Assembly (NCBI GenBank): GCA_963835065.1
Contig: CAWIEK010000001.1
Coordinates: forward strand, 64,001 to 128,000
DNA: 64,000 nucleotides
Direction: 5' to 3'
From: an uncultured Chthonomonadaceae bacterium
GTDB lineage: Bacteria; Armatimonadota; Chthonomonadetes; Chthonomonadales; Chthonomonadaceae
Part shown: positions 36,001 to 39,000 of the stretch, piece after piece
Numbering within the stretch: the first letter of the stretch is position 1
Layout of the letters: the number at the start of each line of letters is the position of its first letter
Made by a program: the position numbers

Positions 36001-39000
36001 CGGGGCAGTGGTACTCGGTTTCCACCGGCTGCGGCTTCAGGTTTTCCATCTCCTCTTTGGCCGCGTTGACGGACAGCTCGAACGGATCGTAGAACGCGCG
36101 CAGCAGGCTGACCCAGTCCACGCGCCCCTCTTCCACTTCGTCCAGCTTGGTTTCCATGTCCGCCGTAAACGTCACATCCATAATGGTCGGGAAATGCTTG
36201 ACCAACTGCTCGGTCACTTTGAAGCCCAATTCCGTAGGATAAAACCGCTTGTCGGTCAAATCCACGTACTTGCGATCCCGGATCACGGAAATAATGCTGG
36301 CATACGTGCTGGGACGCCCGATACCGCGCTCTTCCAACGCCTTGACAATCGTAGCTTCCGTGTAGCGGGGCGGCGGCTCCGTAAAGTGCTGGCGCGGCTC
36401 CAGCCGGTTCAAATCCAGTTCCTGCCCCGTAGCCAACGGCGGCAGGGGCGGCTGCTCGTCATCGCCCACTTCTTCCGTATCCTTGCCCTCGGTATACACG
36501 CGCATAAACCCATCGAATTTGACAACGGTTCCGGTAGCGCGGAAAACATAGGGGAGTGATGAGTGATGAGTGATGAGTGATGAATTTGAATTCCGTTCAT
36601 CATTCATCATTCCGCGTTCATCATTTCTCCTTGCATTGATGTCTGCCGTCGTCACGTCCATGATGGCGGGGTTCATCTGGCTGGCAACGAAGCGCTGCCA
36701 GATCAGACGGTACAGGCGAAGTTGTTCGCTGGTCAGAGAATTGGCGATTTTGTCCGGTTCGAATTCTACATGCGTGGGGCGAATGGCTTCATGGGCGTCC
36801 TGCGCGGCGTTCTTGGATTTGAACTGCTTGCCGGCGGCGGGAACATACGCGGGGCCATACTTTTCCAAAATGAACTGGCGGGCGGCGGCCTGCGCTTCCC
36901 CGGCCACGCGCACCGAGTCGGTACGCATGTAAGTTATCAAGCCCACGCTGCCGTGCCCCGCGATTTCCACGCCCTCGTACAAGTGCTGCGCGACGGACAT
37001 GGTGCGCTTGTTGCCGAAGCCCAATTTGCGCGATGCTTCCTGCTGCAGGGTGCTGGTGATGAACGGCGCGGCGGCGTTGCGCTTCTGTTCGCGCCGTTTT
37101 ACATCGCCAACCGTAAAGTCGGGACGGCGCGACGGGGGAACTTCCGCCAAAAACGTATCGCCTTCGCCCTGACGAACATCCGGCAGGCCCAGGTCGCGCA
37201 GAACCGCGTTGATTTCATCTTCGGTTTTGGGTTCCACGCGCTGCCCGCCCCGGCTGTGCAATTTGGCCGGGAACAAAAACTTCTTTTCGGGAAGTTGCGG
37301 CGTCAGAATGGCCGTCAGCGACCAGTATTCTTCAGGCTTGAAGGCTTGAATCTCGCGTTCGCGGTCACAAATAAGCCGCACGGCAACCGACTGTACGCGC
37401 CCCGCCGACAATCCCTTTTGTATCTTCTTGGACAGTACCGGCGACAGTTTATAGCCGATAAGCCGATCCAACACGCGCCGCGCCTGCTGCGCGTTCACGC
37501 GATCCATGTTCACGGTACGCGGGTTCGCCAGTGCCTGCTGCACCGCCGTTTGCGTGATCTCGTTAAACTGAATACGCCGCGCGTCCTTGAGTTTCAAGGC
37601 TTCGGCCAGATGCCACGCTATCGCCTCGCCTTCGCGGTCAGGGTCGGAAGCGAGATACACGATTTTCACGCGCTTGGCGGCATTGGCAAGCCGTTCCAGC
37701 ACGTCGGCGCGGTCGGGCAGGGGCTGGTACGTGGGCGCGAAATCCTTGTTGACATCCACGCCGAGCCGCGCCGTAGGCAGATCGCGCACATGCCCCATGC
37801 TGGCTTCCACCAGATAGTCGGCGCCCAAAAAGTTTTTCAGCGTTTTGGTCTTCGCGGGAGACTCAACAATAATAAGCGCTTTCGCCATACGGGTATTGCC
37901 TTTAGGAAGTAAATAGGGAACAGGGAACAGGAAATAGTCTTTCAATTCCAGGTAGTTTTGGTTATTGTGACGGAAGGATCACGCGATGTATGAACTTTCT
38001 GTTCCCTGTTCCCTGTTCCCTGTTTCCTGTATCTTACCTGCGCCCTTGCGCTTTGTCAAGGCGCAGGGCTTGTGATTGGAGGGCGGCAAAGTTGGCGGGC
38101 GGCACGTAGCCGGGCAGTCTGCCCAAAACACGCCCGCTTTCGTCCGCAAAAACTGTCGTGGGGTACTCGTGAACGCCGTATTGCTGCGCCAATTGGGGTT
38201 CGGTTTCGCCATCTATGCGGACGCAGGTAAATTGGCGGGCTAACTCTATGACGCGGGGATCGGCAAACGTTTCCGCTTCCATTTTGGCGCACCACTCGCA
38301 GCCGGGGGTATGAAATTCCAGCAGGAGGGGACGGGCGGCATGTTGGGCGCGGGTTTGCGCCTGCGGCATTTCGGACAGCCACGCGATGTCGCTCCCCACT
38401 TGGCCGCCGCGCACCGCGCCCATGATGCCGACGCCAAGCAGCAGGGCAAGCGGCAGCGCCGATCCCATAAGGCCGGATTTTGTTGGTTTACGCCAGCGTT
38501 TCAAAAGCATCAAGCGCGTTGCTCCTCAGCAAAACAACTTATCAGCGCTGCCAGCAGCAGCAGGGGCGCGACATGAAGGGTCAGGCGCTCCACGCTGCTG
38601 ATGATATGGGCGGGAAGCGCGGACGGGGTTATCATATAAATGCCTATGTAGCCGCAAAATTGTACTCCGGCGAACAGCCAGAGCGGGCCTGTCAGGGCAA
38701 GGCGGCGTTTACGCGCGGCGATGCCCCCTGCCAGTATAATCACGCCCAACAATCCCCATGCGGGGAACCGGGGACCAAGCCACACAAATTGTTTGCCGAA
38801 CCCATATACCATAGCGTACCACATTCGCCACCAGAGCAAGCGAATCGTGAAATGCGGCGGATGTGTCGGCTGCATCACATCGTTGGTCAAATTCCAGCGC
38901 TGTTTGAGCAGCCACCAGGGCAGGCAAGCCAGAACGGGAGCAAGCAGCCACCAGGACAGCCTGCGTTCCTGTTTTTGTTGCGGAGCGTTGCCGGTAGATG

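What a model noticed while it worked through the whole genome (the two positions that open the first line are those of the whole stretch)
36557..36625. 69-bp palindromic element inserted in frame in ~50 protein genes
A 69-bp imperfect palindrome built from TGATGAA/TGATGAG heptamers occurs in 94 copies. Of these, 49 lie inside called protein genes (topoisomerase I, RpoB, DnaG, ValRS, ProRS, PEPC, AddB twice, GltB, RodA-PBP and others), always read in the one stop-free frame of six as the 23-residue peptide N[AD]ERGMMNDELxSHSSLITHHSS. I read it as a recently amplified selfish mobile element that survives inside essential genes by being translated. It would be a counterpart, in a free-living 8-Mb Armatimonadota, of the Rickettsia palindromic elements, so far the extreme case of in-frame MITEs (44 insertions in R. 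conorii). If true it gives a natural map of about 50 insertion-tolerant loops in conserved enzy [...]
Evidence so far: blastn of the PEPC copy (C9:82707-82775) against the genome: 94 distinct copies of >=55 nt, 80-100% identical. 49 lie inside called genes, 17 overlap a gene end, 28 are intergenic. All in-gene copies translate to the same 23-aa peptide, and only 1 of the 6 frames of the element is free of stops. 27 of 49 lie between or inside Pfam domains, or inside a Swiss-Prot alignment that spans both sides. Proteins with an internal copy are a median of 37 residues longer than their best Swiss-Prot homolog over the aligned span (19 cases), against 4 for 1,062 long alignments genome-wide. 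Copy number in relatives: about 149 first-look candidates here, 11 in same-genus G007, 1 in same-genus G008, and no ma [...]
(Added by a program. Inside this text positions count along the whole contig: contig position 64,001 is position 1 of the stretch shown here. "Call 12" and the like, gene names such as g00115 and contig names such as C1 are that model's own, and its searches are not shown. The text may have been shortened before it was handed on; [...] marks where a part breaks off. The agent that wrote the report below was given it as the finding of a first reader that could run no searches.)

Follow-up and report, generated by a model that had tools for sequence, protein, structure and literature searches.

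The report
Refillable heptamer slots inside essential proteins
The 69-base hairpin in this bacterium's topoisomerase I gene is real and sits in frame in dozens of genes, but related bacteria carry different 7-base-repeat hairpins at the same spots, so these protein loops are likely slots that get overwritten again and again by a repeat system tied to a small four-helix protein of unknown function, not one-off landings of a jumping element.

Summary
Observation confirmed; interpretation only partly. The element (two inward arms of four heptamers, 11-nt loop) sits in frame in topA and forms a low-confidence loop between two predicted strands. Its family has 119 copies: 55 carry a variant unit that opens one frame (31 strictly internal, 18 open on one side); 57 of the other 64 are closed in all frames. 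It is one word among many: about 1,300 heptamer cassettes, 270 in frame. It is not an RPE-like fresh insertion. At 22 orthologous sites in a sister species none holds this word and 17 hold another cassette; the TopA loop holds peptides of six other heptamers in 9 of 117 homologues; there is no target duplication. Across GTDB, 15 of 31 TGATGA-armed 400-bp cassettes enclose a four-helix-bundle gene, all from one clade. Against: this assembly lacks that clade. Best reading (0.5): gene-less derivatives of four-helix-bundle cassettes that overwrite each other in place, with selection keeping stop-free versions in genes. The named 'RpoB' host is a divergent paralogue. The scan reported this system before, in this genome and others; I retested it.

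The parts
36557..36625 (-). The cassette: 69 nt, 23 codons, TopA residues 422-444
   Evidence: folds as a bulged hairpin, RNA z -3.1 (0 of 200 shuffles as stable), DNA z -2.3 (6 of 200)
36596..36625 (-). 5' (purine-rich) arm: two A's plus four heptamers of the TGATGAA class
   Evidence: sequence; four units in 50 of 55 variant and 46 of 64 pure copies (in nested copies that count can fall on the adjoining array)
36610..36616 (-). Variant second unit CGCGGAA, which stands where two in-frame TGA codons would be and opens the one frame
   Evidence: the same unit occurs mostly outside genes in other organisms and in the arm of a four-helix-bundle cassette (L034, L103)
36585..36595 (-). 11-nt loop, the most variable part
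   Evidence: loop of 11, 14 or 17 nt in 58 of 63 variant copies, 27 of 46 pure copies
36557..36584 (-). 3' (pyrimidine-rich) arm: four heptamers of the CTCATCA class
35330..37888 (-). Host gene topA (type IA topoisomerase); the cassette takes the place of a short turn between two strands
   Evidence: Pfam PF01131/PF01751/PF01396; about 4 residues in the 9gda chain against 29 here; model strands 408-420 and 447-458, pLDDT under 50 at 430-442
2814..2885 (+). Cassette of the same design with other words (CAGGGAA arm, CAATCGG arm)
3668..3698 (.). Lone or decayed TGATGAA-class arm
37998..38030 (.). CTGTTCC array upstream of topA
47977..48027 (.). Two adjoining arms of other words
52586..52695 (.). 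Inverted CAGTAGT-class cassette, the word that brackets the four-helix-bundle gene on C8
62479..62586 (+). Nested cassette of several words (AACAGGG, AGAAGAC, ATCAACT)

Best explanation
The element is one word of a genome-wide set of four-heptamer, inward-armed cassettes that have the same arms as four-helix-bundle (TIGR02436) genes, and it is likely a gene-less derivative that spreads by overwriting an existing cassette or loop in place, probably with that protein's help, while selection likely keeps only stop-free, frame-keeping versions inside genes. Shown: the anatomy, the other words at orthologous sites, the missing target duplication, the arm-to-clade link, the frame filter. Inferred steps: (1) the ring-shaped protein binds the run of four to five units, which would explain the cap on arm length; (2) the folded-back cassette is cut, by a host nuclease or by the PD-(D/E)XK GxxExxY protein whose genes carry similar 8-9-mer arms; (3) the break is repaired from another cassette, giving new, mixed or nested arms with unchanged flanks; (4) in genes, products with a stop or a frameshift are lost, so the TGATGA word survives there only with its pre-existing variant unit and a loop of 11, 14 or 17 nt, and the peptide is tolerated as a flexible loop.
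For: Slots: 17 of 22 distinct G002 sites hold another cassette, 0 the same word; GltB has four contents in G000, G001, G002, G023 and is 27 codons shorter in G021 and G019; PEPC in G002 has other words at the same length; 9 of 117 TopA homologues carry peptides of 6 other heptamer words in this loop, 0 of 310 shuffles; 6 of 9 DUF1553 paralogues are filled at one point with different contents, 3 are empty. Length differences to G002 are multiples of 3 at 11 of 16 variant rows. Protein link: 15 of 31 TGATGA-armed cassettes in GTDB hold TIGR02436, all 15 in one clade (100/99); 17 of 34 full-length four-helix rows have inverted arms by a strict rule against 0 of 400 control windows (two rows are repeats); in the phylum the clade is in 17 of 34 genomes with GATGAR arrays and 28 of 267 without (kin not independent); G001 has no TIGR02436 match and 7.5 arrays per Mb in 0.4 Mb, against 78 in G002 and 166 in G000. 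Design: 1214 of 2117 arrays have four units, 13 have six or more; G-rich arm first 500 times, reverse 4. The clade's nearest solved relative is 2RLD, five chains.
Against: G000, the genome richest in this word, has no gene of the matching clade in its assembly (91.9% complete); its three four-helix genes belong to other clades, and only one of the three has arms by the strict rule, the other two by eye. The clade also occurs with other words (L018, L035, L389, L391, L393), and gene and arms would co-vary just by travelling together. The GTDB pattern was sized for this gene, so 15 of 31 is conditional on that size. 5 of 22 G002 sites, among them topA, have no repeat, and 8 of the 17 filled sites share the related GGATGAA word on one arm, which could be common descent. 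No donor-recipient pair or conversion tract was found; cores identical at two loci were assembly duplicates. The variant arm is nearly absent from intergenic slots (6 of 55 closed), which random donors plus selection do not readily explain. G002 has many frameshift errors. Binding, cutting and translation are untested.
Confidence: 0.5

Rival explanations
1. Protein-independent turnover: the cassettes are leftovers of four-helix-bundle gene cassettes, and hairpin-induced breaks are repaired by ordinary host recombination between look-alike cassettes; the protein plays no part in swapping.
For: No matching-clade gene in G000; mixed and nested arms are what ectopic recombination would give; 17 of 34 phylum genomes with the word lack the clade.
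Against: Swapped words share little sequence, which homologous recombination needs (established knowledge); the cap at four to five units and the strict polarity are not explained; G001, without TIGR02436, has few arrays and a decayed GltB cassette.
Confidence: 0.27
2. RNA-based homing: the cassette is copied from a transcript by a reverse transcriptase working with the four-helix protein, as Avd does with bRT in diversity-generating retroelements, and pasted over a slot.
For: Avd is a pentameric, positively charged barrel needed for cDNA synthesis (bioRxiv 10.1101/344556, passages); its likeness to TIGR02436 proteins is recalled, not tested here. A transcript route could explain why coding slots get coding-type donors.
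Against: The two RT genes of G000 look CRISPR-linked (beside a cas1-like ORF) and retron-like by my reading, and neither is bracketed by arms; no RT lies between TGATGA arms in the 29 ORFs scanned; adenine-biased change was not tested.
Confidence: 0.11
3. One reading: a classical non-autonomous MITE like the Rickettsia palindromic elements, recently inserted at fresh sites.
For: High copy number here and few or none in sisters; G001's PEPC is exactly 23 codons shorter; some G002 sites are empty.
Against: Other words at most orthologous sites; no target duplication (direct 4-, 5-, 6-mers 47, 13, 6 against shuffled means 44, 14, 3.7 in 97 copies); no arms within 500 nt of the four Y1 transposase matches.
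Confidence: 0.07
4. The cassettes are kept for a host function (protein-binding or RNA-processing sites, or peptide linkers) and change by slippage.
For: 52 of 64 pure copies lie at a stop codon and fold better than in-gene copies (median -36 against -23 kcal/mol); similar four-heptamer elements were read as regulator sites in Geobacter (PMC2700814, passages).
Against: The word and the peptide are not conserved at a site; relatives do without; slippage gives a tail of long arrays and cannot change the word on both arms.
Confidence: 0.05

Closest known systems
ORF-bearing 23S rRNA intervening sequences with an S23p/four-helix-bundle gene (Coxiella IVS; PMC4990558, passages)
   Same: A four-helix-bundle ORF in the loop of a hairpin, with tandem heptamers before the start codon; one copy of this family sits in the 16S rRNA gene of G000 and is absent at that point in G001.
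   Different: Known IVS lie in rRNA and are cut out by RNase III; these cassettes are gene-less, number about 1,300, lie mostly between and inside protein genes, and keep the frame as if translated.
Rickettsia palindromic elements (review PMC10969869, passages; originals not read)
   Same: Palindromic, multicopy, in frame in unrelated housekeeping genes, one conserved peptide.
   Different: About 150 bp and not tandem-built; read as fresh insertions. Here the arms are heptamer runs, sites are refilled with other words, and 270 cassettes of many words are in frame.
Four-heptamer elements of Geobacter metallireducens (PMC2700814, passages) and GGGAATC repeats of Xanthomonas (PMC4692102, passages)
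   Same: Four units per arm, often in convergent pairs, near stop codons, and in Geobacter also within genes.
   Different: Described as regulator sites or quadruplexes; in the passages read there is no link to four-helix genes and no swapping at a site. Supplements not read.
REP/REPIN with RAYT transposase (recalled)
   Same: Short palindromes in high copy that depend on a single-copy protein whose gene they flank.
   Different: No GTAG/CGTC end in most copies (15 of 119), no arms at Y1 genes; the partner here has no recognised catalytic domain.
Cyanobacterial STRR/SDR repeats (Elhai 2008; recalled, not held) and Beggiatoa TAACTGA repeats (PMC4679880, passages)
   Same: Heptamer runs, patchy across phyla, placed according to their stop codons.
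   Different: Mostly direct runs with no partner protein named in the passages read.

Membership tests
MITE / Rickettsia palindromic element | Inverted-repeat or palindromic structure | tested here: met
MITE / Rickettsia palindromic element | Target-site duplication | tested here: not met
   direct k-mers at shuffled level in 97 copies
MITE / Rickettsia palindromic element | Empty orthologous site in relatives | tested here: not met
   17 of 22 sites hold another cassette, 5 no repeat
MITE / Rickettsia palindromic element | Autonomous transposase with the same ends | tested here: inconclusive
   none among 29 ORFs between TGATGA arms or at four Y1 genes; other transposase families not scanned
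MITE / Rickettsia palindromic element | In-frame conserved peptide in unrelated genes | tested here: met
REP/REPIN-RAYT | GTAG or CGTC at one end | tested here: not met
   15 of 119
REP/REPIN-RAYT | Repeats flank a Y1 (RAYT) gene | tested here: not met
   0 of 4 PF01797 matches have an array within 500 nt
ORF-bearing rRNA intervening sequence | Located in an rRNA helix | tested here: not met
   this copy is in topA; 1 of 119 copies is in 16S rRNA
ORF-bearing rRNA intervening sequence | Four-helix-bundle ORF between heptamer arms | tested here: inconclusive
   met for this word in 15 GTDB loci; not met in G000
ORF-bearing rRNA intervening sequence | Excision from RNA by RNase III | not testable with these tools
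   needs RNA data or an assay; frame conservation argues for read-through in mRNA
Slippage-driven simple sequence repeat | Variable unit number with a tail of long arrays, same unit at a locus | tested here: not met
   13 of 2117 arrays have six or more units; the word changes at a site
Diversity-generating retroelement | RT with Avd gene and template-variable repeat pair | tested here: not met
   the two RT genes are not beside four-helix genes; template repeats not searched

The most novel reading that the evidence does not exclude
A class of bacterial selfish DNA with no transposase, integrase or target duplication: each clade of the ring-forming four-helix-bundle (S23p/IVP) protein reads its own heptamer word and drives cassettes to home onto, and overwrite, cassettes of other words. 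One system would then account for the excess of heptamer repeats in bacteria, the mobility of ORF-bearing rRNA intervening sequences, and a constant rewriting of loops in essential enzymes.
Probability: 0.4. Interest if true: 0.9.

Novelty: new variant of a known kind. Interest (0 to 1): 0.72.

Why it matters
It makes three old open questions testable with one assay: why heptamer repeats are over-represented in bacteria, what S23p/IVP four-helix proteins do, and how rRNA intervening sequences move. The TGATGA word with its matching protein clade gives a concrete protein-DNA pair to test. The 270 in-frame cassettes in 234 ORFs map loops of conserved proteins that tolerate not just one insert but several unrelated peptides. 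It also warns annotators: a palindrome found only in one species need not be a fresh insertion.

Tried and rejected
Assembly artefact: rejected. Variant unit as an adaptation evolved for coding: rejected, because the same arm is internal in only 4 of 94 scored metagenome loci (120 fetched of about 150; 5 duplicates and 21 short loci dropped) and 7 of 33 phylum matches, and occurs on both arms in several genomes. Target duplication: not found. Matching-clade gene in G000: not found by tblastn, a local profile or alignment A1. GxxExxY nuclease as sole driver: G001 has 6 matches but few heptamer arrays. RT and Y1 genes: no bracketing arms. Expression: no RNA holder listed. Reads at GltB: no empty or swapped allele seen; contigs of run X2 enter the element from both sides. 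The first tree had three rows translated on the wrong strand and was rebuilt. Length-modulo-3 figures for variant copies were spoiled by adjoining arrays and were replaced. Comparison with G001 rests on 0.4 Mb and targeted genes only (3 sites mapped). Literature: nine searches listed no paper on in-place swapping or on a clade-to-word link; most subscription papers are outside the library. PMC3543383 (passages) added nothing. No complex was predicted.

Full report
Observation. The element lies at window 36557-36625 on the minus strand, in frame in topA. It is a 30-nt purine-rich arm, an 11-nt loop and a 28-nt pyrimidine-rich arm, and folds as a bulged hairpin (RNA z -3.1, DNA z -2.3). blastn finds 157 loci, 119 of 55 nt or more; a structural definition gives 119 inward arm pairs and no outward pair, of which 6 pairs look like assembly duplicates. 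A contig of an independent-looking run spans the element without a gap, and two other runs show about 100-fold depth over it (run X1 may be related to the source sample). In an AlphaFold model (mean pLDDT 82) residues 430-442 are under 50, between strands 408-420 and 447-458; a solved TopA has about 4 residues there.

Two subtypes. A pure run of four TGATGAA units has stops in every frame, on both strands. 55 of the 119 copies have a variant second unit (CGCGGAA and kin) in one arm, which opens one frame. Of these, 31 are internal by a strict rule, 18 are open with a long ORF on one side and 6 are closed; of 64 pure copies 57 are closed and 2 (a duplicated pair) internal; chance is 345 of 3000. 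All 31 read on the strand the variant predicts. Loops are 11, 14 or 17 nt in 58 of 63 variant copies, against 27 of 46 pure ones. 52 of 64 pure copies lie at a stop codon. So the reading frame is under selection, which argues that the peptide is translated (inference). The variant unit is not a coding invention: the same arm is internal in only 4 of 94 scored metagenome loci and 7 of 33 phylum matches, and it occurs in arms that bracket four-helix genes (L034, L103). Of 50 hosts scanned, 19 have the element inside or between Pfam stretches. The host called RpoB is a divergent RpoB-like gene with no match at 1e-40 in 4 of 5 relatives; the true rpoB holds no repeat doublet.

One word among many. 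The genome has 1330 exact heptamer arrays of three or more units, against 31 pentamer, 32 hexamer and 123 octamer arrays. They group into 1324 cassettes, 270 of them internal in 234 ORFs; words whose purine-rich arm has stops are almost never internal (for example 1 of 142, 0 of 77). 1214 of 2117 arrays have four units and 13 have six or more; a G-rich arm precedes a C-rich arm 500 times and follows it 4 times.

The sites are slots. I took the idea of swapping from earlier scan notes and tested it. In 2.0 Mb of the 7.5-Mb sister genome G002, 24 of 119 sites could be mapped, 22 distinct: none has the TGATGA word, 9 have unrelated repeats, 8 have the related GGATGAA word on one arm, 5 have no 7/8-periodic repeat, topA among them. 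GltB carries four different contents in G000, G001, G002 and G023 (another genus) and is 27 codons shorter in G021 and G019; PEPC and ProRS carry other words in G002, and PEPC is 23 codons shorter in G001. The TopA loop is 14-15 residues shorter and repeat-free in G002 and G001, yet 9 of 117 homologues carry peptides of six other heptamer words there, against 0 of 310 shuffles (read from protein, DNA not seen). Six of 9 DUF1553 paralogues are filled at one point with different contents. No target duplication exceeds shuffled pairings.

The partner protein. G000's three TIGR02436 genes have inverted arms, one by a strict rule and two by eye; its three GxxExxY (PF13366) genes have degenerate 8-9-mer arms by eye. 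A GTDB scan for TGATGA arms around a 350-380-nt ORF gave 31 loci, 15 with TIGR02436, in eight or more phyla; all 15 fall in one clade (100/99) with GGATGAA-armed genes of relatives, while other clades go with other words. The clade also has members with other words. In 301 genomes of the phylum it is in 17 of 34 with GATGAR arrays and 28 of 267 without (kin are not independent). Its nearest solved relative is 2RLD, five chains. Against the link: G000 itself has no gene of that clade in a 91.9% complete assembly.

Mechanism. Best (0.5): gene-less derivatives of four-helix-bundle cassettes overwrite existing cassettes or loops by cut and refill, with the ring protein binding the four to five units; selection keeps stop-free, in-frame products in genes. 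Binding, cutting, donor use and translation are inferred. Rivals: host recombination alone (0.27), RNA-based homing with an RT (0.11), fresh MITE insertion (0.07), host function plus slippage (0.05). Unexplained: the variant arm is nearly missing from intergenic slots in G000, as if coding slots drew on coding donors.

Comparison and novelty. It works like an ORF-bearing rRNA intervening sequence freed from rRNA (PMC4990558, passages: heptamers before the S23p ORF), and one copy does sit in 16S rRNA. It resembles Rickettsia palindromic elements in outcome (PMC10969869, passages) but fails the empty-site and duplication tests. Four-heptamer elements were described in Geobacter (PMC2700814, passages) and Xanthomonas (PMC4692102, passages) without swapping or a partner protein; their supplements were not read and may bear on this. 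Nine searches listed no paper with the swapping or the clade-to-word link; Elhai 2008 was not held and is recalled only. The scan has noted the system before in this genome and in others. Verdict: real, a new variant of a known kind with a 0.4 chance of being a new class of mobile DNA; interest 0.72.

Noticed in passing
G000:C2:132700-136600 (L059): A divergent RpoB-like gene (about 750-770 aa) followed by an ORF of 435 aa that looks RpoC-like by my reading; matched in G002 but not at 1e-40 in G001, G023, G021, G019. Recalls the second beta-prime gene in repeat-rich Beggiatoa (PMC4679880).
   Followed up: partly
G000:C48:61068-65122: The true rpoB is split over several frames, a sign of many indel errors in this assembly.
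   Followed up: no
G000:C51:119534-119590 (L048): A TGATGA cassette inside the 16S rRNA gene; G001 has 11 nt where G000 has 100.
   Followed up: partly
window about 37130-37190 (TopA residues 233-253): A second insert of about 20 residues in TopA, absent in solved structures and in 3 homologues shown, with no clear repeat; possibly a decayed slot.
   Followed up: no
window 33291-35257: Downstream of topA, an AAA-ATPase-like ORF and an HNH-like ORF, by my reading of their sequences a Septu- or retron-effector-like defence pair; not scanned.
   Followed up: no
window 35330-35650: TopA ends in a long Lys/Thr/Ala-rich tail of short repeats, histone-like.
   Followed up: no
G000:C19:8329, C39:76631, C3:174081: Three GxxExxY (PF13366) genes with degenerate inverted 8-9-mer arms, a parallel cassette system.
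   Followed up: partly
G000:C49:681660 and C50:52695: Two RT genes: one beside a cas1-like ORF, one retron-like beside a BRCT/SWIM-like ORF, by my reading.
   Followed up: partly
G000 C43/C69, C25/C37, C26/C55, C34/C4, and within C41 and C44: Duplicated stretches with identical flanks, likely haplotype or assembly duplicates; the two copies differ by a base that breaks the frame in C43:72346.
   Followed up: partly
L105, L116: TGATGA arms also bracket ordinary small genes (a VanZ-family gene; an unnamed 113-aa ORF) in Bacteroidota, as adjacent cassettes or cargo.
   Followed up: no
L089-L118: In several four-helix cassettes the last arm unit supplies the start codon, so proteins begin MMN.
   Followed up: no
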